A stretch of 34,866 nucleotides of DNA, taken from IMG/VR virus record IMGVR_UViG_3300045988_063005, positions 1-34,866 of that record. The stretch is one strand, 5' to 3'. Source of the stretch: a virus. Both the position numbers and the translations under genes were made by a program. Positions within the stretch are counted from its first letter, which is position 1. Every line of letters begins with the position of its first letter. The notes under the pieces were generated by a model. That model had not been told where the DNA came from. It did no database searches and was given only the letters and a program-made list of their open reading frames with translations. This document shows, one piece after another, positions 1 through 34,866 of the stretch.

Positions 1-85
1 AACGGCAAAACTAATTATTAATCGAAAGGGTGGGTAGGGTTGATTACCCTATCTACCCTTTTTTCATTTTAAAAAAAAAAAAAAC
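1..85. repeat. Terminal direct repeat, copy 1 (identical to 34782..34866)
   Basis: Base-by-base comparison: aacggcaaaactaattatta...cattttA14c occurs at both window ends. It contains the capsid-gene terminator. Confidence 0.95.
28..66 (+). terminator. Rho-independent terminator (duplicate of the one after the capsid gene)
   Basis: GC-rich imperfect hairpin gggtgggtagggt-tgatt-accctatctaccc followed by TTTTTT. Confidence 0.8.
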
Positions 86-5231: not shown

Positions 5232-5243
5232 ATGTTAATAAGG

Positions 5244-5306
5244 GGCCTAAATAGCTATCTAAACAGTACAACACACTGAAAGATAGCTATTTAGGCCTAT
5301 TTTTTA
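5244..5306 (+). terminator. Strong rho-independent terminator closing the late operon
   Basis: Perfect 17-bp stem ggcctaaatagctatct (5244-5260) / agatagctatttaggcc (5281-5297), 20-nt loop, then tattttttag. Preceded by GTTAATAAGG. Confidence 0.9.
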
Positions 5307-5512
5307 GTTACCTTATTCTATTTTCCCCTAACTTTATTTATAAATCTTATTTCTATATTATAAATACCCTATATGCCCTACAACCTATTGTAGAGGGGGT
5401 ACTACTCTCTATAAAAATGAACATACTTTTTTTGATTAATCTTATATAGATTCACAATAAGGTAACTTTTTTCATATATTAAAAAGCTGATTTTCAAGTG
5501 ATTGTACTATAA
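5300..5512. repeat. Inverted-repeat partner A (matches reverse complement of 22648..22838)
   Basis: Hand alignment: tttttagttaccttattctattttcccctaactttat vs rc ttttttcgttgccttattctgattccctataactttat. Also gctgattttcaagtgattgtactat vs rc gctgattttgatatgattgtactat. Block order is colinear. Confidence 0.75.
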
Positions 5513-5613
5513 ATATTCCCGACTGTTAATGAATGGTTTGGTATTTAAAGTATCTAACTACCTGATTTGCTGCGATTTGATAAGTTTTTATAGTTAATTC
5601 TTAGTTAATCAAT

Positions 5614-5653
5614 GTTAATCGCTTTGCCACCTCAAAATAACCCCCTATATTTG
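5614..5653 (+). promoter_or_regulatory. Early promoter, class 1 variant (GTTAAT-N26-TATATTTG)
   Basis: TAnnTTTG box at 5646-5653. Three GTTAAT boxes at 5593, 5603 and 5614 with ~10-11 bp spacing, plus one at 5524. Confidence 0.65.
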
Positions 5654-5775
5654 CATCACGTTCAAAGGGAAACATTTCCCAACGTAAGAAATGAAACGGG
5701 CAGTATCCACATAGCACCGTACCAAAGTGGAAGAAATGAATAGGAGATTTGGATACGAAAGAAAAGGATTTGATT

Positions 5776-5970
5776 ATGGTTGAGCAGATAGTTGACGGTA
5801 TGTTTACTATTACATCATTCCGCTTGTTTTACGGCGATGAAAGTTCTATTTACAATCGTACGTTTGAACGCATAGACTTTAACGGACATTTTGAATATTA
5901 TTCGGTTGAGGGGAACGCATTTTATACACTCAAAGAGGTATTCAACTACCTTATGACTAAAGAATGTTAA
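5776..5970 (+). CDS. Hypothetical early protein
   Basis: First sizeable ORF after the early promoter. ATG at 5776 preferred over the TTG at 5749 given in the track. Confidence 0.5.
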   Translation: MVEQIVDGMFTITSFRLFYGDESSIYNRTFERIDFNGHFEYYSVEGNAFYTLKEVFNYLMTKEC

Positions 5971-5997
5971 ACGCTAAACATTTTCGGTTCGCGTAAC

Positions 5998-6015
5998 GTT
6001 TATACAGTATAACAA
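5998..6015 (+). promoter_or_regulatory. Class 2 cassette (GTTTATAcAGTATAACAA + A-rich leader)
   Basis: Same spacing to the ATG (35 nt) and same leader as class 1, but TTTG is replaced by AGTA. Preceded by the hairpin gtta-aa-cgc...gcg-taac. Confidence 0.45.
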
Positions 6016-6032
6016 TTTAAAAACAAAAGATT

Positions 6033-6206
6033 ATGAAAGCGAAAGAATTTATCTACAAAGAAGTTGAGAACTATTTAAAGAGTAACATGAGTGCTAACCG
6101 TTTTTCCGTAGTGGCGATTGCCGAGGATATGCCGACCTTTGACGGGTTTATTATCCCCCTACTATTTTCAGATGTTAGAGGGCGTGCAATTCCCCGTAGA
6201 TATTGA
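6033..6206 (+). CDS. Small early protein, 57 codons (possibly the 5' part of a frameshifted 93-aa gene)
   Basis: ATG sits exactly behind the canonical leader aaaaacaaaagattATGaaa. Below the track length cutoff. Confidence 0.5.
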   Translation: MKAKEFIYKEVENYLKSNMSANRFSVVAIAEDMPTFDGFIIPLLFSDVRGRAIPRRY

Positions 6207-6312
6207 AGACCTATATATCAATTCAGAGGACTACGAAGAGCAGTACAACGAGATTGCGACCCTGTTAGCGTCTAAACTCATGAGATTAGGAGCAAATCAA
6301 GCATTAAACTAA
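6172..6312 (+). CDS. Small acidic ORF in the +1 frame (separate gene or 3' part of 6033 gene)
   Basis: Track ORF 6118..6312. First ATG at 6172. Overlaps the 6033 ORF, and the two frames meet at the C5 run 6155-6159. Confidence 0.35.
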   Translation: MLEGVQFPVDIEDLYINSEDYEEQYNEIATLLASKLMRLGANQALN

Positions 6313-6327
6313 AAACCAAATAGAGAT

Positions 6328-7464
6328 ATGAAAACAATTGAATTAATCGCAGAAATGCAGAAGAACTTAACGGCCCTAAAAGAGCAACAAGTAAACGAAG
6401 TGTCAGAACTCGAAGCGTACAAAGCTAAGCAGCGAGAAAAGGTTAAGCAGTTAGAAACATCTATTTTAAGCGCGCTGGCGGCATTCTTGCATGAGGACGA
6501 AGTAACTGCACCCGCGTCGGTAGAAAGTCCCGTAGAGGACGCGGAAACGACATCAGCGGAAGCAGAAGCCGCCTTAGAGCAGGCAAAATCACTCGCGGAG
6601 AAAGAAGCCGCAGAGAAAAAACGTAAAGCCGATATTGCGGAAGCGAAAGCACTGGCAGCTAAAGCTAAAGCCGAGCAGGAAGCAAACGGACGGAAAGAAC
6701 TTTCAGCAGCAGCGGAAAAGGCTCTGAAAGAAGCTGCCGACCGTAAAGCCGCAGAAGATGCAGCTAAAGAAGCAGCAGCTAAAGAAGCAGCAGCTAAAGA
6801 GGCAGCAGCTAAAGAAGCAGCAGCTAAAGAGGCAGCAGCTAAAGAAGCAGCAGCTAAAGAAGCAGCAGCTAAAGAGGCAGCAGCTAAAGAAGCGGCAGCT
6901 AAAGAAGCAGCCGAACCTACGGGCGATGATTCCAAATTGGAAAAGCTATTAGATAAGTACCAGCACCCAATCACGTTGCGCGCTATTGAAAACTTGAAAG
7001 CAAACGGACACGAGGCTATGCTGAAGCCGTCTCGTAATAAAATGGGCTGGTTTTGTAGAAGCGTAGAGGCTAATAAACTGATATTAGACGAGACCGAGCG
7101 CATTATAGCAGAGGAACAGAAAGCCCTCTTTGCAGACGGCTCGGGCGCAGAACAGCATCTTAAGGAAATCGGCGCGTTCGCAATGGCGAGAAAGAAAGCG
7201 AGTACGTTCGGCCGTCAGTCGGCTATCATGGATAAGTTCCCCGTAACATTAGACGGAATAGATAAGAGCCAGCACATGGAAAAACTTGGAACAGCAGCCC
7301 GTATGTGTATGCTTGGTAAGTTATTCAGTTCAGACCAATTTAAGGAGTATTTAGAGCCCTACGGACTTACTTCTATGGCACAGCTCCCAATTGACAAGGT
7401 TAATGAGTTTTACCAGCACATGCTAACTTCATGTATGTATAACGTTGATAAAGAACAAGACTAA
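6328..7464 (+). CDS. Coiled-coil / single-helix protein with (AAKEA)x10 repeat and globular C-terminal domain, function unknown
   Basis: 378-aa ORF. The N-terminal half is A/E/K-rich with a perfect tandem repeat and the C-terminal ~190 aa are non-repetitive. Sits directly upstream of the nuclease with a TAATG overlap. Confidence 0.7.
   Translation: MKTIELIAEMQKNLTALKEQQVNEVSELEAYKAKQREKVKQLETSILSALAAFLHEDEVTAPASVESPVEDAETTSAEAEAALEQAKSLAEKEAAEKKRKADIAEAKALAAKAKAEQEANGRKELSAAAEKALKEAADRKAAEDAAKEAAAKEAAAKEAAAKEAAAKEAAAKEAAAKEAAAKEAAAKEAAAKEAAEPTGDDSKLEKLLDKYQHPITLRAIENLKANGHEAMLKPSRNKMGWFCRSVEANKLILDETERIIAEEQKALFADGSGAEQHLKEIGAFAMARKKASTFGRQSAIMDKFPVTLDGIDKSQHMEKLGTAARMCMLGKLFSSDQFKEYLEPYGLTSMAQLPIDKVNEFYQHMLTSCMYNVDKEQD
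6760..6909 (+). repeat. Tandem repeat, 15 bp x 10 (gcagctaaagaRgcR) encoding AAKEA x10
   Basis: Counted directly: 10 in-frame units differing only at synonymous gaa/gag and gca/gcg positions. Confidence 0.95.
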
Positions 7465-8656: not shown

Positions 8657-8698
8657 ATTAACGAATGAACCAACGTATTAGATAAAGCGTTATATTTG
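8657..8698 (+). promoter_or_regulatory. Early promoter, class 1 (aTTAAC-N28-TATATTTG, 26-nt leader to ATG)
   Basis: Counted spacing: TTAAC ends at 8662, N28 is 8663-8690, box is 8691-8698, ATG at 8725. Confidence 0.7.
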
Positions 8699-8724
8699 CA
8701 TCAACGAATTAAAAACAAAGAATT

Positions 8725-8997
8725 ATGAAAACTAACAAAGGTATTTTATCGGACGAAGAATTGAAAGAACGTGCAGGTTTTTGGAACAAAAAACAGTTCC
8801 GCACATGGACTAAAAAGGAAATGAACCGCGATGCAGCGAAAATGCAAAAGATATTGGCGGCTATCAAGGACTTAACATTAGAAGAAATCTATGCAGAGCG
8901 AAAGAAGTACCGAGGCTCTTTGCGCTGTGCACCCCTGAAAGATATAGAATACGCTATTTCGATAGCCCCAAAAACTTTTAGAGTTAAACAAGGTTAA
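8725..8997 (+). CDS. Hypothetical basic protein
   Basis: ORF behind a class 1 promoter/leader. Its stop TAA lies inside the next GTTAAC box. Confidence 0.6.
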   Translation: MKTNKGILSDEELKERAGFWNKKQFRTWTKKEMNRDAAKMQKILAAIKDLTLEEIYAERKKYRGSLRCAPLKDIEYAISIAPKTFRVKQG

Positions 8998-9034
8998 CAG
9001 AATGAACAACCTACCGATTTAATTGTTATATTTG
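8993..9034 (+). promoter_or_regulatory. Early promoter, class 1 (GTTAAC-N28-TATATTTG)
   Basis: GTTAAC 8993-8998, box 9027-9034, ATG 9061 (26-nt leader). Confidence 0.7.
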
Positions 9035-9060
9035 CATCGCCTAATTAAAAACATAGAATT

Positions 9061-9282
9061 ATGAAAAAAGAGTATTTTAGCTTAGTAGAAATGGTAGACC
9101 GCGAGAACGGAGAACAATTTGATTTCACATTGGAAATCGGGCTGGAAGAAATAGAAATGCGCTTTATCTCCGTATCGGAGTTCCTTAATGATGTTATTTA
9201 TTTGCTACTGAACTACGATACGGATAAGTACATATTAATATTGGAAGATGATGCAAAAAGGATAATGGTAGAGGTTGAATAA
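9061..9282 (+). CDS. Small highly acidic protein, function unknown
   Basis: 73 aa. By my count 19 D/E versus 7 K/R. Has its own promoter. Confidence 0.6.
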   Translation: MKKEYFSLVEMVDRENGEQFDFTLEIGLEEIEMRFISVSEFLNDVIYLLLNYDTDKYILILEDDAKRIMVEVE

Positions 9283-15789: not shown

Positions 15790-16012
15790 TGAAAGGAACT
15801 AAAGACCCCACCAGCGTACTAAAATGCAAAAGGCTGGTTGAAAGATTAAATTCGTAAGACGAGAAAATAAGCAAACGTATCTCGAAAGGGTTAAATGAAA
15901 GTTCGGTAACCGATTAAATGAAGCTATAAAGCTTAAATCTTTAGAAACCTTACAACAAACAAAAAGAAAGTTAATAAGGCAATCAACGGTGAACCTTTCA
16001 AAGCGTCCGTTG
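15790..16012 (+). ncRNA. Candidate phage small RNA / long structured leader (hypothetical)
   Basis: About 190 nt between the consensus promoter and the GTTAATAAGG-hairpin. Only 3-5 codon ATG ORFs. Several local hairpins (ccagc..gctgg, cgaga..tctcg, aagct..agctt, ggtta..taacc). Confidence 0.3.
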
Positions 16013-16030
16013 TTTATTAAGTATAACAAC
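15971..16030 (+). promoter_or_regulatory. GTTAATAAGG-hairpin plus class 2 cassette (copy 1 of a ~75-bp repeat, partner 20662..20721)
   Basis: Stem caacgg (15984-89) / ccgttg (16007-12), 17-nt loop tgaacctttcaaagcgt, then GTTTATTAAGTATAACAAC. Confidence 0.55.
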
Positions 16031-16049
16031 AAATTAAAAACAAATGATT

Positions 16050-16457
16050 ATGAAAAAGTTAGTAGTATTAGCAGTGTTAGTGTTTGCAAGTGTATCAGTG
16101 TTTTCGCAGATTACAAGTCAAGGTAAACCCGAAGTATTAAAAAGTTTCCGCATGGGCGTATGTAAGTTGATTGATACGAACGGGGCGATTTCAATAGTAG
16201 CAAAAACCAAAGAGGCCGCGGGGCTTGAACTTACTGTTGATTTGGGAACACCACAAGAAGCGGATGCCATTATAAGTTCAATGATTGACTACACCCCGAA
16301 ACGAGGCGAAACAGTGGACTTAAACAACCCGTCAAACAATACAGCGTATTATCAGAAACTTAATGGTACATGGGTTATAGTTAGCGCGGGCGGTGCGGCT
16401 TCCATAGCAGTAAGCAAAGGCGAATTAAAAAAGATGTTAATAGCAATTACCGAGTGA
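16050..16457 (+). CDS. Secreted protein with N-terminal signal peptide, function unknown
   Basis: MKKLVVLAVLVFASVSVFSQ is a classic signal peptide with no lipobox Cys. The second ATG (16050) is chosen by analogy with the leader-ATG-AAA pattern. Confidence 0.65.
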   Translation: MKKLVVLAVLVFASVSVFSQITSQGKPEVLKSFRMGVCKLIDTNGAISIVAKTKEAAGLELTVDLGTPQEADAIISSMIDYTPKRGETVDLNNPSNNTAYYQKLNGTWVIVSAGGAASIAVSKGELKKMLIAITE

Positions 16458-16476
16458 ACCAAATCAATTTATAAAC

Positions 16477-16495
16477 GTTTATATAGTATCAACAA
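16477..16495 (+). promoter_or_regulatory. Class 2 cassette (GTTTATATAGTATCAACAA)
   Basis: 36 nt to ATG 16513. Embedded 12-bp palindrome ATAAACGTTTAT. Confidence 0.45.
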
Positions 16496-16512
16496 TTTAA
16501 AAACAAAGAGTT

Positions 16513-16698
16513 ATGAAACTTACAAAAGTAGAATTTATCGTGAAAGGTGAGAAAGTAAAAGAATATATTAATTTGGAACACGTATCGCGTCTCTTATGGA
16601 TAGACGGAACGCCGTATGTGGGAATGGTCGGACAGACGTTTACAAGGCAATTGGCGGCGGAATACGAAGAGTGTTTCATTGGACTAATAGACCTATAA
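16513..16698 (+). CDS. Hypothetical protein
   Basis: ORF behind the class 2 cassette and canonical leader. Confidence 0.55.
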   Translation: MKLTKVEFIVKGEKVKEYINLEHVSRLLWIDGTPYVGMVGQTFTRQLAAEYEECFIGLIDL

Positions 16699-16702
16699 AG
16701 CC

Positions 16703-16864
16703 ATGATTGAGATACTGAAAGTTAGATACAAGAAACGCGGGGGGTGGGATACCTTTCTACTTTCGGAAAAGCAAATCTTCCCAACAGTGGAGAAAGCAAG
16801 GGAATATTTTAAAGAAAAGTTAGAAACAAATAAAGTAGTTTTGTATTATGCAGAAAAATTATAA
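16703..16864 (+). CDS. Small hypothetical protein (53 aa, below track cutoff)
   Basis: Hand translation MIEILKVRYKKRGGWDTFLL...YYAEKL fills an otherwise empty 150-bp gap and overlaps the next start. Confidence 0.45.
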   Translation: MIEILKVRYKKRGGWDTFLLSEKQIFPTVEKAREYFKEKLETNKVVLYYAEKL

Positions 16865-17779: not shown

Positions 17780-17959
17780 ATGACTAACTATGTAACTCTA
17801 AACGTGGCCTGCCAATCAGGTAAGACCGAGATAAAGATAAACGGTAAGACAGTTAAAACCGCTAAGGAGATAGAAACCGCGATTAAGAAAGTAGATTCCG
17901 CCGAACATTCGGCCCTACTTCAAAACCTATTAATGTTAGTGAGGACTTTAGAATGTTAA
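17780..17959 (+). CDS. Small hypothetical protein (59 aa, below track cutoff)
   Basis: Hand translation MTNYVTLNVACQSGKTEIKINGKTVKTAKEIETAIKKVDSAEHSALLQNLLMLVRTLEC fills the gap and overlaps the SNF2 start. Confidence 0.5.
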   Translation: MTNYVTLNVACQSGKTEIKINGKTVKTAKEIETAIKKVDSAEHSALLQNLLMLVRTLEC

Positions 17960-19341
17960 AGAGAGAACAATTGCATGCGTATCAAGAAAAGGCCGTTGAA
18001 CTTATACTTGACAATCTTAATTGCGGACTGTTCTTAGATATGGGTTTGGGTAAAACGGTTAGTACCCTGACAGCGATACAGGAACTAAGGTCAATGGGTT
18101 TCATTGACAAGGTGCTAATCATCGCCCCGAAAAAGGTCGCACAGGTAACTTGGAAAGACGAGATAAAGAACTGGGAGCATTTACAAGGTTTACGTATCTC
18201 TGTGATAGACGGAACAGCCGCGCAGCGTAAAGCTGCCATGTTGGCAGACGCTGACATATATACTGTCAGTCGCGATAACGTTGTTTGGCTTGTGGTTGAG
18301 CATGGCGGGGTAAAGTTGCCCTATGATATGGTAGTCATTGACGAGCTATCCAGTTTTAAGAACCCAGCTTCGAAGCGTTTTAAGGCGCTAAGACGCGTCC
18401 GTAAATTTATACCGCGAGTTGTAGGTCTTACTGGTACGCCTGCCCCTAACGGGCTGATAGACCTATGGTCGCAGATGTATTTAATTGACGAGGGTAAACG
18501 GCTGGGCAAAACAATCACAGGTTACCGAGATAGATTCTTTACCGCTGGTAAGCGTAATGGTGATATAGTCTATGAGTACATCCCCAAAGCACCAGCAGAG
18601 GAAACCGAAAAAAAGATAAGCGACCTGATAAAAGACATTTGTTTATCCATGAGTGCCGAGGACTATTTGAAGATGCCCGACAAGCTGATATACTATGACA
18701 AGGTAAGGCTATCAGATAAGGACATGAAAGCTTATAAGGCCTTTGAACGTGAACAGGTGTTAGAGTTTATAGAAAGTGGTGAGACCGTTACGGCCGCGTC
18801 TGCGGCTGCACTCAGCAACAAGTTACAGCAGTTTGCGAACGGCGCTATGTATGACGCAGACCGAAAGGTGTTGCAACTCCATGACGAGAAGATAGAGAAG
18901 TTAAAGGAACTCGTAGAGGCCGCGAACGGGCAACCCGTATTAGTCGCATACTCGTTCCAGCATGACCTATCTAAGATAATGGATGCACTTAAGGAGTATA
19001 AGCCCGTCAAGTTAGAGAAGCCCGAGCAGATAGCCGATTGGAACGCGGGAAAGATTAGCGTACTGATTACGCATCCAGCGTCCGCGGGTCATGGACTTAA
19101 TTTGCAAAAGGGCGGGCACATCGTGATATGGTACGGCCTTACGTGGGCGCTGGAGCTATACCAGCAGTTCAACGCGCGCTTATACCGTCAAGGACAAACG
19201 AAGCCCGTCAGCATACACCACATCATAACTGAGGGTACCGTAGATGAAAAGATAGTCCGAAGCCTTGACGGCAAGGATACTACGCAGCGCAGCTTAATGG
19301 ATGCAATCAAAGAGATTATCGAAATATATAAAAAAGGTTAA
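17953..19341 (+). CDS. SNF2/Rad54-family helicase (superfamily 2 ATPase)
   Basis: Motif I DMGLGKT, motif II VIDELS, TGTPAPN, C-terminal GHGLNLQ and QQFNARLYRQGQ. Confidence 0.9.
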   Translation: MLKREQLHAYQEKAVELILDNLNCGLFLDMGLGKTVSTLTAIQELRSMGFIDKVLIIAPKKVAQVTWKDEIKNWEHLQGLRISVIDGTAAQRKAAMLADADIYTVSRDNVVWLVVEHGGVKLPYDMVVIDELSSFKNPASKRFKALRRVRKFIPRVVGLTGTPAPNGLIDLWSQMYLIDEGKRLGKTITGYRDRFFTAGKRNGDIVYEYIPKAPAEETEKKISDLIKDICLSMSAEDYLKMPDKLIYYDKVRLSDKDMKAYKAFEREQVLEFIESGETVTAASAAALSNKLQQFANGAMYDADRKVLQLHDEKIEKLKELVEAANGQPVLVAYSFQHDLSKIMDALKEYKPVKLEKPEQIADWNAGKISVLITHPASAGHGLNLQKGGHIVIWYGLTWALELYQQFNARLYRQGQTKPVSIHHIITEGTVDEKIVRSLDGKDTTQRSLMDAIKEIIEIYKKG

Positions 19342-19378
19342 CAAAAAGAACAACTTAATGTTTTATTCGTTATCTTTG
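19337..19378 (+). promoter_or_regulatory. Class 1 promoter (GTTAAC-N28-TATCTTTG) driving the paralog array
   Basis: GTTAAC 19337-42 contains the SNF2 stop. Box 19371-78. 27-nt A-rich leader to ATG 19406. Confidence 0.65.
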
Positions 19379-19405
19379 TATTACTAATTAAAAAAAAAGA
19401 AGATT

Positions 19406-19846
19406 ATGAACGATTTAAAGGTTTTGAATTTAGAAAAGTATGTAGGGAGCCGAGTAACCACGTACGAGGTACACAACGCTTTAGTAGTTGGTTATGTAAA
19501 GAATGGTGTAAGTCTACTCATAGTGGAGCGCGAGGGCGGTTGGCGCGAGCCTGATATAAACGACGTAATATTATTAGATGGCAGGGAGGAGGAGTTTTGG
19601 TACGTAACGCTGGCCGAGATAAAGCGCATCACCCTTAAACCTACGCTCCGCGATATGGTAGGTCTCGACGTTATGTATCAAGGAAAGCCACGTAGGTGCG
19701 TAGGATACAACGAGGGCCTAAACGCCGCCATACTGCAAAAGAACGGTGGCTGGGTGAAGTTTTCCAAGGGTGATGTGATAGGTGTCCGAGAGGATTTGGA
19801 TGCGGGTTTTGAGTATGCAGATTATAACGAAGTAGAAGTATTATGA
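19406..19846 (+). CDS. Paralog-array protein 1 (two copies of the VGK..VVGY..GW..DV domain)
   Basis: Copy 1 EKYVGSRV..ALVVGYVKNG..GGWREPDINDVILL..FWYV. Copy 2 RDMVGLDV..RRCVGYNEG..GGWVKFSKGDVIGV. Confidence 0.7.
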   Translation: MNDLKVLNLEKYVGSRVTTYEVHNALVVGYVKNGVSLLIVEREGGWREPDINDVILLDGREEEFWYVTLAEIKRITLKPTLRDMVGLDVMYQGKPRRCVGYNEGLNAAILQKNGGWVKFSKGDVIGVREDLDAGFEYADYNEVEVL

Positions 19847-20067
19847 ATGCAAGGGAGAAAGATTTAGAAAAGTTCGTAGGTAAGACCATATCGGACGGCG
19901 GAAGCAAATCACTTTTTAAGTGCGTGGGCTACAATCTCATAGCAGGGCTGCTCATTACAGAGGCGAGCGAATACGGTTGGCACAGGCTTGATACAAGTGG
20001 TGTGGTATATAGAGAATGTGAAAGTTATTGGTATTTAAACCCTTTAACAGCGAGGATAGTAAAATGA
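19843..20067 (+). CDS. Paralog-array protein 2 (one domain)
   Basis: KDLEKFVGKTI..FKCVGYNLI..YGWHRLDTSGVVY..YWYL. ATGA overlap with the upstream gene. Confidence 0.7.
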   Translation: MNAREKDLEKFVGKTISDGGSKSLFKCVGYNLIAGLLITEASEYGWHRLDTSGVVYRECESYWYLNPLTARIVK

Positions 20068-20423
20068 CAGCAAAGGAAATGATAGGTTTACAGGTAAAGA
20101 CTGTAATCAAGCAAAAAGAAGTAGTAACGCGGGTAGTAGGTTTCGCGAGTGACGTTTGGGCGATTATAGCATGGGACGGCGGTTTCGCCAAAGACAAGCT
20201 AACCCCTGATGATGTGATAGTGTTCGACTGTACGGGTTACTGGTATAGAGAGGTAGACCACTTAATAGTAACAGAGGCTGAAAGATTATCGGCGGGGAAC
20301 TTGCTTAGCGAAGTCGGTACAGTGGAGACACCTCTAACGGATTACATCTACCCAGCAGTGCCCGAGGAGCTGCCAGTGTTACCGCCCGAACCCGAAGTAC
20401 CCGAATTTATTGAAGTATTATAA
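20064..20423 (+). CDS. Paralog-array protein 3 (one domain plus Pro/Glu-rich tail)
   Basis: Start refined to the ATGA overlap. KEMIGLQVKTV..TRVVGFASD..WDGGFAKDKLTPDDVIVF..YWYR. Tail PAVPEELPVLPPEPEVPE. Confidence 0.7.
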   Translation: MTAKEMIGLQVKTVIKQKEVVTRVVGFASDVWAIIAWDGGFAKDKLTPDDVIVFDCTGYWYREVDHLIVTEAERLSAGNLLSEVGTVETPLTDYIYPAVPEELPVLPPEPEVPEFIEVL

Positions 20424-20427
20424 AAGT

Positions 20428-20658
20428 ATGGAAGCAAAAGATTTAGTAGGAAAAAGGATTTGTTCAGACTATTTAGAGGACTCCCTAAACGCGCCCGCGG
20501 GGGCAGAGTTCAAGGTAGTAGGGTACACCACCTACGGGAAATGCATAGTAGACGGGGGTCTGACAGGCTGGCGCTACGTGTGCAAATACGACCGAATAGT
20601 CGAGGAGTGCGATTTCTATTTGTATCTCAGTACCAAGGATATAACCAAAGTGTTATAA
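20428..20658 (+). CDS. Paralog-array protein 4 (one domain)
   Basis: MEAKDLVGKRI..FKVVGYTTYG..TGWRYV..FYLYL. The first 23 nt are identical to the start of 20738. Confidence 0.7.
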   Translation: MEAKDLVGKRICSDYLEDSLNAPAGAEFKVVGYTTYGKCIVDGGLTGWRYVCKYDRIVEECDFYLYLSTKDITKVL

Positions 20659-20661
20659 CAA

Positions 20662-20721
20662 GTTAATAAGGCAATAGCGGCGAACCTTTTAAAGCGCCCG
20701 CTGTTTATATAGTATAACAAC
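20662..20721 (+). promoter_or_regulatory. GTTAATAAGG-hairpin plus class 2 cassette (copy 2, partner 15971..16030)
   Basis: Stem tagcgg / ccgctg with compensatory changes relative to copy 1, loop cgaaccttttaaagcgc, then GTTTATATAGTATAACAAC. 35 nt to ATG 20738. Confidence 0.55.
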
Positions 20722-20737
20722 TTAAAAACTGGATGAT

Positions 20738-21181
20738 ATGGAAGCAAAAGATTTAGTAGGTAAATGGGTAAAAGGCTGGGAGCAGACAAACCCCGAATAT
20801 GCGGATGCGCCCGCGCTGGTTGTAGGATATAACATGCATGGTTTCGCGGCGCCGAACATTATCGTAGAGAACTTGTACGGCTGGGGCTGGGAGAAGCCCT
20901 CAGGCAGCGATGTAGTTAAGATAACTTGTGAGGGTTACAGTTACGCGAACCCCGCATTAGTAACTATCTGTGATACGCCCGAGGGTGAGCTGGACTATGA
21001 TACGGACGGCCAATGTCTGAATGTGCTCATAGACCTACCGCCACAAACGACAATGTCGCAGATACGCGAATTGGAAATGGCGGGGTATAAGTTCACTCGC
21101 GATTCGGGCGGCTGGACTATAAAGAACCCTGAGGGCGCTACGGTTGGTTGGGCGGACACGTTATCAGGAGTGGAGCCATGA
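20738..21181 (+). CDS. Paralog-array protein 5 (one domain plus C-terminal extension)
   Basis: MEAKDLVGKWV..APALVVGYNMHG..YGWGWEKPSGSDVVKI..GYSY. Confidence 0.7.
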   Translation: MEAKDLVGKWVKGWEQTNPEYADAPALVVGYNMHGFAAPNIIVENLYGWGWEKPSGSDVVKITCEGYSYANPALVTICDTPEGELDYDTDGQCLNVLIDLPPQTTMSQIRELEMAGYKFTRDSGGWTIKNPEGATVGWADTLSGVEP

Positions 21182-21738
21182 GGGAAATAATAAGAATAGC
21201 CCGCCAGCGTGCGGGCGAACGGGTAGTTAAGACCTACTCAGAGGGATGCACCCTTAGTGGCTGGATAGTAGGATACGAAGATGATATGCTGGTAGTGGCG
21301 CACAACTGCGACAGGGTTAGGGGGATAACAACCCGCTGCGCAAAGAACCCTGTCCTACTGGCTGAGCCGCCTTGCAAGACGAAGCACACCATTCTAACCG
21401 CGCCGACAGGGTTACGTCCGTATGAGGATAGGAACGAGGATAACAAGTTTTACTCATGGGTCGGTCGGCATATCGGTAGGGTCGCGTTCTTTAAACCGTA
21501 CGGCCCGAAGCAGAAAGGGCTGATAGTAGGCCACAAGGACGGTATGGTAGTTATTAGGGTGATGTACACCAAGGTATCTAAGTTCGCCTGTGAGCCGGCG
21601 GGGGAAGATTACAACAGTATCCTTGACTACAACACACATAAGGCCGCAGGCAAGCTTAAAATGCTATATACGGACGTGTTGGTAAGCAAGAATGATTTGA
21701 GGTTAACAAAATTGGTAGGAATAGAAAATATATGTTAG
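21178..21738 (+). CDS. Paralog-array protein 6 (two diverged domains, weaker match)
   Basis: Start refined to the ATGA overlap. AGERVVKTY..LSGWIVGYEDDMLVV and VGRHIGRVAFF..KGLIVGHKDGMVVI keep the VG..V / (I/V)VG(Y/H) core only. Confidence 0.55.
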   Translation: MREIIRIARQRAGERVVKTYSEGCTLSGWIVGYEDDMLVVAHNCDRVRGITTRCAKNPVLLAEPPCKTKHTILTAPTGLRPYEDRNEDNKFYSWVGRHIGRVAFFKPYGPKQKGLIVGHKDGMVVIRVMYTKVSKFACEPAGEDYNSILDYNTHKAAGKLKMLYTDVLVSKNDLRLTKLVGIENIC

Positions 21739-22365: not shown

Positions 22366-22469
22366 TAGTCAAGTAAGGAGGCTCGATAGCATTTTGATAG
22401 GCCTTAAAACATAAGTAACCGCCTTTTAAAAGTGATACATATAGAGGGTTTTAGGTTACAAAGTGTCAA

Positions 22470-22507
22470 AGCGTACAGGGTAAGAACTACTTTGTACGCT
22501 TTTTTTA
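22470..22507 (+). terminator. Rho-independent terminator closing the early block
   Basis: 12-bp stem agcgtacagggt / actttgtacgct with two G-U pairs, 7-nt loop, then T7. Confidence 0.8.
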
Positions 22508-22647
22508 TGCACCCCCCCGTCAGAACGCTCAGAACGCACTATAATGTAACGTTAAATGGGGGTTATTGACTTATCAATCAAGTGATTGTGCTATTTTTTG
22601 GGGTGCTAAAAGGGCCCTGTTTTTCTTTACCATATTTGACACTCGAA

Positions 22648-22838
22648 ATAGTACAATCATATCAAAATCAGCCCTTTAATATATATTTAACGACACCTCT
22701 TAGTGAATATACATAGAAACATAGGAATGAAATTACTATCTTATTTATAGGGATATTATAGTTAATAACAGTTAAATGGAAAATAAGAGAACATTCTAAA
22801 ATAAAGTTATAGGGAATCAGAATAAGGCAACGAAAAAA
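22648..22838. repeat. Inverted-repeat partner B (reverse complement matches 5300..5512)
   Basis: See partner A. Roughly three quarters identity by hand alignment, with an ~18-nt insertion in this copy. Confidence 0.75.
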
Positions 22839-23067
22839 GGGGGTTAAATGCCTGATTTTTAAATAACTCTACTTTTGGCCCTTTTTACGAATGTTTACAG
22901 ATTTGTAGGGCGCTTGATTTTTGTAAAGAAAAATACGTTAATAGATTGTTAAAATGAAAATGCGCAGATTTGGAAGATTTGTTTTTGACTAAAAATGCGT
23001 GTAAGGAATTTTTGTAGTATTCGTGTGGCGAAACTCAGTTATATTGTGATTAGTTGGAAAAGGTATG

Positions 23068-23075
23068 TACTTTTG
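23068..23075 (+). promoter_or_regulatory. Putative late promoter box TACTTTTG(TGCC) upstream of terS
   Basis: TAnnTTTG match. The extended TACyTTTGTGsC is shared with 23923 and 26126. Followed by the hairpin ctctca-cgtt-tgagag. Confidence 0.5.
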
Positions 23076-23144
23076 TGCCTCTCACGTTTGAGAGAAGATA
23101 AGACCGCGCACCCGCGCGCGTACATTATATAATAGGAAACAACT

Positions 23145-33835: not shown

Positions 33836-34783
33836 ATGGCAATGACATTTACCGACATGAACAAACTAAACCTTTCAGGTCTTAACGAAGTTATCACGTT
33901 GACTGTTGGTTTGGCTGGAGAAATTTCTAAGGGTATTACCGTTATGAACGGTATCGCAAACAACACACCCGTTGTTTCACTGACAGCATCAGACAAGGCG
34001 TTAAAGCTTTCCGCAGGATGTGGAGATACTACGTACTACGATAAGATTGTAGACAAGGTTAAATACTACGACCACGCACCTATCGAACTTCCCTTGGAAA
34101 TCTGCTTGCAAAGCCTGTGGGGAAAAATGGTAGCTAAGGGCATTAACCTTGACGACGATTTTTCAGAAACCGAATTGGCTGGTTTTATTCAGGCCGAGGT
34201 ACTGAAAGTATTGGAAGCTGACCTGTTGCGCTTAGCTTGGTTGGACAATGATATTAAGGAGGGCAAAGAAGCTGGCTACGGCATCTTTAAAAACGGCGGT
34301 ATTATCGCACAGCATATTGCAAGCGGTGAAGAGCAAGGCGCTTTGACGCTTGACACTGCTGGCGTGCTTGCTGCATTGCGTGCTTGTGTTGACGGACAGC
34401 GTCCTGACCAGTTGGATGGCTCGGAGTTCTTCGTAACATCTAACGTTATGCGTTTGTACAAGAACCTGTTGCAGGACAAAACAAATGACATGGCATTTGT
34501 TACGCTGGTTGACGGTAAACCCGAATATTACTTCGAGGGTTACAAGATTAACGAACTGCGCCACGTATCTAACGCAGCTAAGGTTGACGGTAAGAATGAC
34601 GCGTTTATCGCTTTCACTCCTAAGGGCAACATTCAGATTGCTTTGGAAAGCGCAGCGCCGTCTATTGCTCCGTTCATCCAAGACGCAAAGAGCCGCAACT
34701 ACTACTCTAACACAGTATTTGCAGCCGATGCAATGCTGGTTACTCCTGAATTTATGCAACTGTGGTTGCACGCTTCTGAATAA
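33836..34783 (+). CDS. Major capsid protein (putative HK97-fold)
   Basis: 315 aa. Follows the scaffold-like gene and is followed by a strong terminator. Composition and length are typical of small major capsid proteins. Confidence 0.7.
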   Translation: MAMTFTDMNKLNLSGLNEVITLTVGLAGEISKGITVMNGIANNTPVVSLTASDKALKLSAGCGDTTYYDKIVDKVKYYDHAPIELPLEICLQSLWGKMVAKGINLDDDFSETELAGFIQAEVLKVLEADLLRLAWLDNDIKEGKEAGYGIFKNGGIIAQHIASGEEQGALTLDTAGVLAALRACVDGQRPDQLDGSEFFVTSNVMRLYKNLLQDKTNDMAFVTLVDGKPEYYFEGYKINELRHVSNAAKVDGKNDAFIAFTPKGNIQIALESAAPSIAPFIQDAKSRNYYSNTVFAADAMLVTPEFMQLWLHASE

Positions 34784-34866
34784 CGGCAAAACTAATTATT
34801 AATCGAAAGGGTGGGTAGGGTTGATTACCCTATCTACCCTTTTTTCATTTTAAAAAAAAAAAAAAC
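34782..34866. repeat. Terminal direct repeat, copy 2 (identical to 1..85)
   Basis: Starts inside the capsid stop codon (taa, 34781-83) and runs to the window end, including the A14 tract. Confidence 0.95.
34809..34847 (+). terminator. Rho-independent terminator after the capsid gene
   Basis: Same hairpin plus T6 as 28..66, inside the terminal repeat. Confidence 0.8.

What the first reader, a model, noticed from the sequence alone, without database searches (positions are those of the whole stretch)
19406..21738. Tandem array of six genes carrying about eight copies of one unannotated ~60-aa domain
Six consecutive, mostly overlapping genes (19406, 19843, 20064, 20428, 20738, 21178) each contain one or two copies of the same module. 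The module is [DE]-[LM]-[VI]-G-[Kx]-x-[VI], then a 6-16 aa variable linker, then [VC]-V-G-[YF], then G-[WF], then D-V-[IV], then [YF]-W-Y.

Examples:
- EKYVGSRV..LVVGYVKNG..GGWREPDINDVILL..FWYV
- KFVGKTI..KCVGYNLI..YGWHRLDTSGVVY..YWYL
- EMIGLQV..RVVGFASD..GGFAKDKLTPDDVIVF..YWYR
- KDLVGKRI..KVVGYTTYG..TGWRYV..FYLY
- KDLVGKWV..LVVGYNMHG..YGWGWEKPSGSDVV..GYSY

Genes 4 and 5 begin with the same 23 nt (atggaagcaaaagatttagtagg). They are separated by a terminator/promoter cassette, so duplication is visible at DNA level too.

About 2.3 kb, roughly 7% of a 34.8-kb genome, goes to diversified copies of one small beta-rich domain that looks SH3/Tudor-like to me. The array sits at the distal end of the early block. 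This is the pattern expected of an arms-race (anti-defence or host-takeover) gene family, and I do not recognise the domain as a named family.
Basis: partly seen in the sequence, partly recalled or inferred. Interest (0 to 1): 0.8.

Follow-up and report, generated by a model that had tools for sequence, protein, structure and literature searches.

The report
Amplified small-barrel domain family in phage
Five neighbouring genes of this gut Bacteroides phage carry six diverged copies of one small, uncatalogued beta-barrel domain that Bacteroides phages, including a crAss-like one, have repeatedly multiplied in tandem; it is probably a binding module aimed at host proteins, but its function is untested.

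Summary
The repeated module is real, but smaller than claimed: six copies in five genes (g1 x2, g2, g3, g4, g5; 19406-21181). A profile built without any window sequence hits all six at E 4e-10 to 9e-17 against 358 window ORFs. The sixth gene (g6, 21178-21738) is only top of the noise (E 0.1-0.5; hhalign 2-5%; AF2 pLDDT 45), so its two copies are unproven.

The domain has no Pfam, PHROGs, NCBIfam, PADLOC or PDB sequence match. An exhaustive profile search of 1.84 billion representatives finds only 63 clusters. The AF2 model of g2 (pLDDT 91) is a helix plus a five-stranded small barrel. It resembles SH3-like barrels only generically (CAP-Gly, KOW/L24, PAZ; TM about 0.5, E >= 0.4).

Copy number varies from 0 to 8 among relatives. 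g4 is present or absent among near-identical genomes. Independent tandem arrays exist in another ~33-kb gut phage and in crAss002-like phages (crAss002 gp64/gp65).

g3-g5 are under strong purifying selection (dN/dS 0.05-0.08). The N-terminal copy of g1 and g2 evolve about ten times faster in relative terms, and dN/dS reaches 2.2 in one g2 loop.

Best reading: acidic early/middle-expressed binding modules for anti-defence or host takeover. This is inferred, not shown.

The parts
19336..19405 (+). Repeated promoter/leader cassette upstream of g1 (contains TATCTTTG, then TTAAAAA...ATG)
   Evidence: It aligns with cassettes upstream of genes at 8725, 9061, 16044, 16513 and 20738 (D6). A promoter function is inferred from recurrence and position only.
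19406..19846 (+). g1, 146 aa, two copies of the domain. The N-terminal copy is about 19427-19624 and the C-terminal copy about 19643-19840.
   Evidence: The window-free profile gives two stretches, 2e-13 and 4e-10. Among relatives the N-terminal copy is hypervariable (dN/dS 0.57-0.65, dS raised). The C-terminal copy is conserved (0.21).
19843..20067 (+). g2, 74 aa, a single domain
   Evidence: Profile E 9e-17. The AF2 model has pLDDT 91 and pTM 0.81 and shows a helix plus five strands. The loop around the conserved GW has dN/dS 1.1-2.2.
20064..20423 (+). g3, 119 aa. The domain is about aa 1-70. An acidic Pro/Glu-rich tail follows (20274-20420).
   Evidence: Profile E 2e-11. pI 4.3. dN/dS 0.06.
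20428..20658 (+). g4, 76 aa, a single domain
   Evidence: Profile E 4e-12. It is present in L084 but absent from the near-identical genomes L085, L087 and L088. It is amplified to four tandem 254-nt units in BS162P3.
20659..20737 (+). Spacer holding a weak GC hairpin and the repeated promoter/leader cassette. It starts a second transcription unit.
   Evidence: D2/D12 (86% identity to 15987-16030). The hairpin is -11.2 kcal/mol with z -0.7.
20738..21181 (+). g5, 147 aa. The domain is about 20738-20971. A second small C-terminal module follows (about 20972-21178).
   Evidence: Profile E 1e-11. The C-terminal module aligns with that of the EMB2 5817-type proteins, the widespread two-module member. 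dN/dS 0.08.
21178..21738 (+). g6, 186 aa, basic (pI 9.4). It always accompanies the expanded array but is not shown to carry the domain.
   Evidence: Profile E 0.1-0.5. hhalign probability 2-5%. AF2 pLDDT 45. Its family has only 14 clusters, all in the expanded sub-lineage.

Best explanation
**Shown.**
- The locus holds six diverged copies, in five adjacent genes, of a phage-restricted domain of about 65-75 aa that no library catalogues.
- The domain is a short N-terminal helix followed by a five-stranded small beta-barrel.
- The array arose by tandem duplication of whole gene-plus-leader units. It is remodelled by gene gain and loss, fusion and recombination between paralogues.
- The same domain has been amplified independently in at least three Bacteroides phage lineages.

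**Inferred.**
- The genes are transcribed with the replication (early/middle) genes, in two units that start at copies of the phage's own repeated promoter cassette.
- The products are small, soluble, mostly acidic proteins that act as protein-binding modules.
- A conserved barrel core (VG, VVGY, GW, DV, YWY) presents variable loops around the invariant Trp.
- Different paralogues would bind different host targets, or different variants of one target.
- The most likely targets are host defence or other host-takeover factors, which the proteins would block stoichiometrically.
- g1's N-terminal copy and g2 would be the fast-evolving 'front-line' members. g3, g4 and g5 would hit conserved targets.
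For: **Homology.** (E down to 9e-17, clean gap to noise).

**Fold.** (pLDDT 91). One search returns only SH3-like-class barrels.

**Uncatalogued and narrow.** Searches find nothing. One search finds 63 clusters among 1.84e9 representatives. One search finds 1,234 proteins; none of the 120 listed carries a Pfam domain, and the only names given are 'hypothetical protein'.

**Duplication mechanism.**
- BS162P3 has a 254-nt gene-sized tandem repeat, four units.
- Junction repeats GAAGTATTATGA recur between genes (D11).
- There are fusions (P0001, P0002) and a g4/g2 chimera (P0099).

**Copy-number variation and independent arrays.**

**Functional constraint.** dN/dS is 0.05-0.08 for g3-g5, against 0.04 for the helicase.

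**Fast evolution confined to loops.** (g2 loop dN/dS 2.2).

**Charge.** pI is 4.2-5.1 for most copies.

**Context.**
- The slot between the SNF2 helicase and a conserved 135-aa gene varies from 0.4 to 4.1 kb.
- In BS162P3 the slot also holds a C5 DNA methylase, a classic anti-restriction gene.
- The cassette is shared with replication-module genes.

**Precedent.** Small SH3-like phage proteins inhibit defences: Nip against SpbK (PMC11984713) and the acidic TifA/Orf65 against type IV restriction (PMC11322646).
Against: - There is no functional data and no homology to any known anti-defence protein.
- Three of the five genes are highly conserved rather than fast-evolving.
- In both phage groups the genes lie inside or beside replication genes, which equally fits a replication-linked role.
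- The raised dS in g1's N-terminal copy points to exchange of old alleles rather than simple positive selection.
- The dN/dS estimates come from five genomes and 15-codon windows, with no significance test.
- The SH3-like assignment is generic (best Foldseek E 0.4).
Confidence: 0.45

Rival explanations
1. The proteins are replication or recombination accessory adaptors. The small barrels would bind phage or host replisome components, for example the neighbouring helicase, the polymerase, or SSB tails, and tune replication in different hosts.
For: - The array directly follows the SNF2-like helicase in the ~35-kb phages.
- It follows the DNA polymerase and precedes a helicase in crAss002-like phages.
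- Extra copies lie inside the replication module in some relatives.
- The promoter cassette is the one used by replication genes.
- g3-g5 are as conserved as the replication genes.
Against: - Many relatives with the same helicase have zero copies, so the domain is dispensable for replication.
- crAss002 gp63 is not related to the window's helicase, so no specific partner is conserved.
- Copy number and loop hypervariability are not typical of core replication factors.
Confidence: 0.2
2. The proteins bind nucleic acid or RNA polymerase and regulate the switch from replication to late gene expression, in the manner of KOW, Tudor or Sso7d-like barrels.
For: - Fold-class neighbours include KOW/L24, Sm, PAZ and the integrase C-terminal domain.
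- The array lies at the boundary between the replication and packaging modules.
- g6, always linked to the expanded array, is basic (pI 9.4).
Against: - The domain proteins themselves are acidic (pI 4.2-5.1), which is unfavourable for nucleic-acid binding.
- The structural matches are not significant.
- A regulator would not be expected in 0-8 copies.
Confidence: 0.1
3. The copies are functionless or nearly neutral duplicates, a by-product of slippage or unequal crossing-over at repeated gene junctions.
For: - Repeated junctions and cassettes could drive unequal recombination.
- g4 is dispensable among near-identical genomes.
Against: - All copies keep intact reading frames.
- g3, g4 and g5 show dN/dS 0.05-0.08.
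- The orthologous paralogues are retained between the window and BS162P3 at about 74% nucleotide identity.
Confidence: 0.04
4. The hypervariable N-terminal copy of g1 is the target of a diversity-generating retroelement.
For: There is localised hypervariability of about 60 codons next to an almost invariant second copy.
Against: - No reverse transcriptase appears among the window's larger ORFs.
- No template-like repeat of this region exists anywhere in the window.
- Variation includes indels and raised synonymous divergence, which is unlike adenine-directed mutagenesis.
Confidence: 0.01

Closest known systems
SH3-like small beta-barrels (CAP-Gly, KOW/ribosomal L24, PAZ, Sm, integrase C-terminal domain, PsaE)
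   Same: The size is similar and the model has a five-stranded small barrel. These folds make up most of the top Foldseek PDB matches (TM 0.45-0.55). There are weak Pfam SH3_9, SH3_4 and SH3_3 signals for g1 (E 0.02-0.14) and an ABL2 SH3 sequence hint (E 1).
   Different: No match is significant (best E 0.4), and there is no sequence homology. The domain has its own N-terminal helix and its own motif set (VG, VVGY, GW, DV, YWY). The CAP-Gly GKNDG signature is absent, as read directly from the sequences; that this motif defines CAP-Gly is my own knowledge.
Nip of Bacillus phage Phi3T (counter-defence against the SpbK NADase)
   Same: It is a phage protein with two predicted SH3-like domains that binds and inhibits a defence protein (PMC11984713). 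It shows that this fold class is used for stoichiometric anti-defence.
   Different: Nip is 279 aa, carries an HU-like dimerisation domain, and comes from Bacillus phages. The link is an analogy only.
TifA/Orf65 of enterococcal phage (inhibitor of type IV restriction enzymes)
   Same: It is a small, strongly acidic phage protein whose N-terminal domain resembles SH3, and it evolves to overcome a defence (PMC11322646).
   Different: It belongs to a different host and phage group and does not form a tandem array. Homology was not tested. The link is an analogy only.
Uncharacterised phage proteins in BFVD (A0A9E7MUK5; Siphoviridae sp. ct3r22; uncultured phage cr11_1) and crAss002 gp64/gp65
   Same: The predicted fold is the same: BFVD E 1e-4 to 2e-2, TM 0.6-0.7. 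crAss002 gp64 and gp65 match the sequence profile at 6e-6 and 1e-4. All are annotated only as hypothetical.
   Different: These are members or near relatives of the same unnamed family, not a characterised reference.

Membership tests
The new domain family itself (profile from BS162P3, EMB2, BV57P1, L089, L091 and crAss002 copies) | A significant match to a profile built without the sequence under test | tested here: met
   g1N 2e-13, g1C 4e-10, g2 9e-17, g3 2e-11, g4 4e-12, g5 1e-11. A profile from other lineages only still gives 4e-11 to 2e-4.
The new domain family itself, applied to g6 | A significant profile or profile-profile match for either half of g6 | tested here: not met
   hmmsearch E 0.1-0.5. 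hhalign probability 1.8-5%. The AF2 model is too poor to compare (pLDDT 45). Its helix plus three strands, seen twice, is only a hint.
Pfam SH3 families (SH3_3, SH3_4, SH3_9) | A score at or above the Pfam gathering threshold | tested here: not met
   The score is 12.8-15 bits against cut-offs of 24-30, for g1 only. None of the 43 family members hits an SH3 model at E <= 1.
SH3-like barrel fold class | A five-stranded small barrel superposable on solved SH3-like domains with a significant structural score | tested here: inconclusive
   The model is confident (pLDDT 91) and the top hits are all of this class. However, E >= 0.4 and TM about 0.5.
CAP-Gly domain | The conserved GKNDG motif and a Pfam CAP_GLY match | tested here: not met
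   There is no Pfam hit. The motif is absent from all copies (sequences). That this motif defines the family is from my own knowledge.
Diversity-generating retroelement target | A reverse transcriptase gene plus a template repeat matching the variable region | tested here: not met
   No RT appears in the PHROGs scans of the larger ORFs. There is no repeat of 19440-19640 in the window.
Known anti-defence proteins (for example Nip, TifA, anti-CRISPRs, Ocr-like mimics) | Sequence or structural homology to a characterised inhibitor, or demonstrated inhibition of a defence system | not testable with these tools
   No anti-defence library was on hand. PDB and BFVD searches returned no characterised inhibitor. 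Inhibition needs experiments.
Any PHROG, NCBIfam or PADLOC family | A significant hmmscan match | tested here: not met
   The best hit is phrog_11014 at E 0.007 for g4 only. There is nothing for relatives, NCBIfam or PADLOC.

The most novel reading that the evidence does not exclude
Bacteroides phages of unrelated types (35-kb siphovirus-like phages and crAss-like phages) share a dedicated 'binder scaffold'. This is a small barrel whose loops are diversified and whose genes are amplified in tandem. The result would be a repertoire of inhibitors, each neutralising a different host defence protein or allelic variant: in effect a phage-encoded, germline-diversified panel of anti-defence binders.
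Probability: 0.2. Interest if true: 0.8.

Novelty: new member of a known kind. Interest (0 to 1): 0.5.

Why it matters
Gut Bacteroides phages, including crAss-like phages, are abundant in the human gut, yet almost all of their small early genes are unannotated.

This work defines a clean, uncatalogued domain family and provides:
- a confident structural model;
- a usable profile;
- named members in cultured phages (BS162P3, EMB1/EMB2, BV57P1, crAss002 gp64/gp65).

The family shows features often associated with genes involved in host interaction: recurrent independent tandem amplification, presence/absence polymorphism among near-identical genomes, and loop-restricted rapid evolution. That makes it a concrete, testable candidate set for anti-defence or host-takeover screens in Bacteroides, where very few such factors are known.

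If it instead proves to be a replication accessory, it would still annotate several genes per genome in a large phage group.

Tried and rejected
**g6 as a member.** Tested with two profiles, hhalign and AF2. It could not be supported. I ran no further search on the pLDDT-45 model because its matches would be meaningless.

**DGR explanation for the hypervariable g1 N-terminal copy.** Rejected: no RT and no template repeat.

**HicA/YcfA-like reading of the g5 C-terminal module.** This was my own recollection of a pattern. It has no support in Pfam or in the PDB profile search.

**Specific linkage to an SNF2 helicase across phage groups.** Rejected: crAss002 gp63 is unrelated to the window's helicase.

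**P0179, an 800-aa hit with four matching stretches.** The matched repeat lies within a Pfam OB-fold (tRNA_anti-codon) hit, so I read it as a local chance resemblance, not a member.

**ORF 16703-16864 (E 0.045 with one profile).** It lacks the VVGY core and was rejected.

**Scan of bacterial genomes with the domain alignment.** It failed because no stretch is conserved enough for pattern search.

**Sigma-70 promoter scan.** It is uninformative for a Bacteroides phage and found no more sites than shuffles.

**tRNA and Rfam scans of the window.** Both were empty.

**Literature search.** It found nothing describing this family.
Full report
**What the window is**

The window is a complete phage genome of about 34.8 kb, assembled as a circle: bases 1-85 repeat at 34782-34866.

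All long ORFs are on the + strand. PHROGs scans give this layout:
- a replication block from about 7.4 to 19.3 kb: exonucleases, a Gp2.5-like annealing protein, DNA polymerase, primase-helicase, an endonuclease and an SNF2-type helicase at 17953-19341;
- terminase small and large subunits from 23145, followed by structural genes that wrap round to about 5.2 kb.

No integrase or reverse transcriptase appeared in these scans. The closest GenBank relatives are sewage isolates on Bacteroides and Phocaeicola. The best is Bacteroides phage BS162P3, at about 74% nucleotide identity over 62% of the region.

**Checking the observation**

The six genes exist at the stated coordinates, and several share ATGA stop/start overlaps.

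Pairwise BLAST among them is weak, so I used profiles that do not depend on the window.
- A profile from four paralogues of BS162P3 found g4 (3e-22), g2 (1e-11), g1 (two stretches), g5 (4e-7) and g3 (1e-6) among 358 stop-to-stop ORFs of the window. The next ORF scored 0.58.
- A profile of 22 copies from six other phages, with no window sequence, gave g1N 2e-13, g1C 4e-10, g2 9e-17, g3 2e-11, g4 4e-12 and g5 1e-11.
- A profile restricted to other lineages (L089, L091, crAss002, EMB2, BV57P1) still found all six, at 4e-11 to 2e-4.

The shared 23-nt start of g4 and g5 is real.

g6 is different. It is the best of the non-significant ORFs (E 0.1-0.5). hhalign against the domain gives 2-5% probability, and its own two halves align at only 15%. 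Its family has just 14 clusters, and the AF2 model is unreliable (pLDDT 45). That model shows helix plus three strands twice, and the two halves share a 30-nt stretch at 73% identity. A very remote relationship is therefore possible, but it is not demonstrated.

Verdict: six copies in five genes.

**What the domain is**

- Nothing matches in Pfam, PHROGs, NCBIfam or PADLOC, whether scanning the six proteins, 43 family members or distant relatives.
- A profile search of PDB sequences finds nothing.
- The word-indexed search found 1,234 proteins. None of the 120 listed carries a Pfam domain, and the only names given are 'hypothetical protein'. Their longest contigs reach about 30-37 kb.
- The exhaustive profile search of 1.84 billion representatives found only 63 clusters at E <= 1e-3.

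The family is therefore narrow and phage-restricted.

AlphaFold2 on g2 with a 43-sequence alignment gave pLDDT 91 and pTM 0.81: a helix at residues 3-9, then five strands. Foldseek against the PDB gave no significant match. The list is made up of SH3-like-class small barrels (CAP-Gly, L24/KOW, PAZ, Sm, integrase C-terminal domain, PsaE) at TM about 0.5 and E >= 0.4. Against BFVD only uncharacterised phage proteins matched.

The 'SH3/Tudor-like' impression is right as a fold class and no more than that.

Most copies are acidic (pI 4.2-5.1). g3 adds an acidic Pro/Glu tail. g5 adds a second small module, shared with the EMB2-type two-module protein found in most relatives. g6 is basic (pI 9.4).

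**How the array evolves**

I anchored on the helicase and fetched 80 related viral contigs, then counted profile hits.

| Helicase identity to the window | Domain copies | g6 present |
|---|---|---|
| >= 89% (incl. BS162P3) | 4 (truncated contig) to 8 | yes where the slot is complete; none seen on the truncated contigs |
| 67-75% | 0-3, usually 2 | no |
| <= 58% | 0 | no |

- The slot between the helicase and a conserved 135-aa gene ranges from 0.4 to 4.1 kb.
- Four near-identical genomes (helicase 97-99% identical) show g4 present in one and absent in three.
- BS162P3 has four g4-type genes as a 254-nt head-to-tail repeat still visible in DNA.
- Fused pairs (P0001, P0002), a g4/g2 chimera (P0099) and a fusion to a methylase fragment (P0143) occur in metagenomes.
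- A different ~33-kb gut phage (L089) has four genes with five copies in the same slot.
- A 98-kb crAss002-like phage (L091) has three genes with four copies after its DNA polymerase.
- crAss002 gp65 and gp64 are members.
- In a rough NJ tree the L089 and crAss-like copies each cluster by lineage, so those are independent amplifications. The window and BS162P3 copies pair up as orthologues, so that expansion is older.

**Selection**

Across five close genomes:

| Gene or region | dN/dS |
|---|---|
| helicase, terminase small subunit | 0.04 |
| conserved 135-aa gene | 0.05 |
| g3 / g4 / g5 | 0.06 / 0.05 / 0.08 |
| g6 | 0.13 |
| g1 C-terminal copy | 0.21 |
| g2 (whole gene) | 0.52 |
| g1 N-terminal copy | 0.57 |

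- In g2 the 15-codon window around the invariant GW reaches 2.2.
- In g1's variable segment dS is also high (0.8). This suggests swapping of old alleles rather than point mutation alone.
- Variability among 19 g2 alleles is concentrated mainly in the loops flanking the conserved Trp.
- These are small-sample estimates without formal tests.

**Mechanism**

Both g1 and g5 are preceded by the cassette that also precedes several replication-block genes. I infer early/middle expression in two units.

The picture is a conserved barrel, variable loops, acidity, dispensability, amplification, and a slot that in BS162P3 also carries a C5 DNA methylase. This fits best with stoichiometric binders of host proteins, most likely defence or takeover targets.

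Two published SH3-like phage inhibitors show the principle: Nip (PMC11984713) and TifA (PMC11322646). They are analogies only.

The main rival is a replication-linked adaptor role, given the position beside helicase and polymerase genes in two unrelated phage groups. Against it, many relatives have no copy, and no common partner gene is conserved.

**Verdict**

This is a real, uncatalogued, phage-specific small-barrel domain family with recurrent tandem amplification. The count is overstated by one gene. The fold class is roughly right. The arms-race reading is plausible and partly supported by evolution, but it is untested. Interest is moderate.

Noticed in passing
window 1-85 and 34782-34866: There is an exact 85-nt terminal direct repeat. 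The window is a circularly assembled genome of about 34,781 bp (D8).
   Followed up: partly
window 6723-6947 (inside ORF 6328-7464): A 15-nt tandem repeat encodes about ten AAKEA units in a 378-aa protein with no PHROG match, at the head of the replication block (D1, 45).
   Followed up: no
window 5998-6049, 8690-8741, 9021-9076, 16010-16066, 16473-16528, 19336-19405, 20687-20737: A conserved upstream cassette (GTTTATATAGTAT-AACAA-TTAAAAACAAAGAATTATG) recurs before several replication-block genes and before g1 and g5. It is probably the phage's early/middle promoter plus leader.
   Followed up: partly
homologues of g1 (P0022, P0029, P0040, P0053, P0055 ...); window 19448-19645: The N-terminal domain copy of g1 is a mosaic hypervariable cassette with indels, while the C-terminal copy is almost invariant. 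dS is raised as well, suggesting allele exchange.
   Followed up: partly
P0060, P0081, P0088 (g2-type); L085 5450-5698: Some g2 alleles carry an internal 8-aa micro-duplication (KSVFKCVG twice, or KFVD twice) in the linker before the VVGY strand.
   Followed up: no
P0143; L001 2841-3572: A metagenomic protein fuses the first ~35 residues of the C5 DNA methylase (present in this slot in BS162P3) to a domain copy, probably through a deletion at an EKY microhomology.
   Followed up: no
L002 3460-3909 and 3911-4369 (Phocaeicola phage BV57P1): The same slot holds two tandem paralogous ~150-aa genes of another unannotated family (MRTLLIDEKG...), so the slot collects duplicated accessory genes of more than one kind.
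   Followed up: no
L093 9744-10219 (Bacteroides phage crAss002 gp65, gp64): Two adjacent hypothetical proteins of the cultured crAss-like phage crAss002 belong to this domain family (profile E 1e-4 and 6e-6). They lie between the DNA polymerase and a helicase.
   Followed up: yes
window 20972-21178 (g5 C-terminal ~68 aa): This is a second small module (P..T[IM]..[IL]..[LH]E..G[YI] ... G ... P.G). It is shared with BS162P3 5615, P0131, P0165 and the EMB2 5817-type proteins. It has no PDB or Pfam match.
   Followed up: partly
window 21264-21293 and 21522-21551 (g6): The two halves of g6 share a 30-nt stretch (73%) encoding IVGY/IVGH-x-D-x-M-x-V. hhalign of the halves gives 15% probability. This hints at an internal duplication.
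   Followed up: partly
window 5232-6327 and 22366-23144: Two AT-rich stretches (GC 0.34-0.37) have no long ORF, tRNA or Rfam match. They sit at the boundaries of the replication block and before the terminase genes, and could hold origin, pac or regulatory sites.
   Followed up: no
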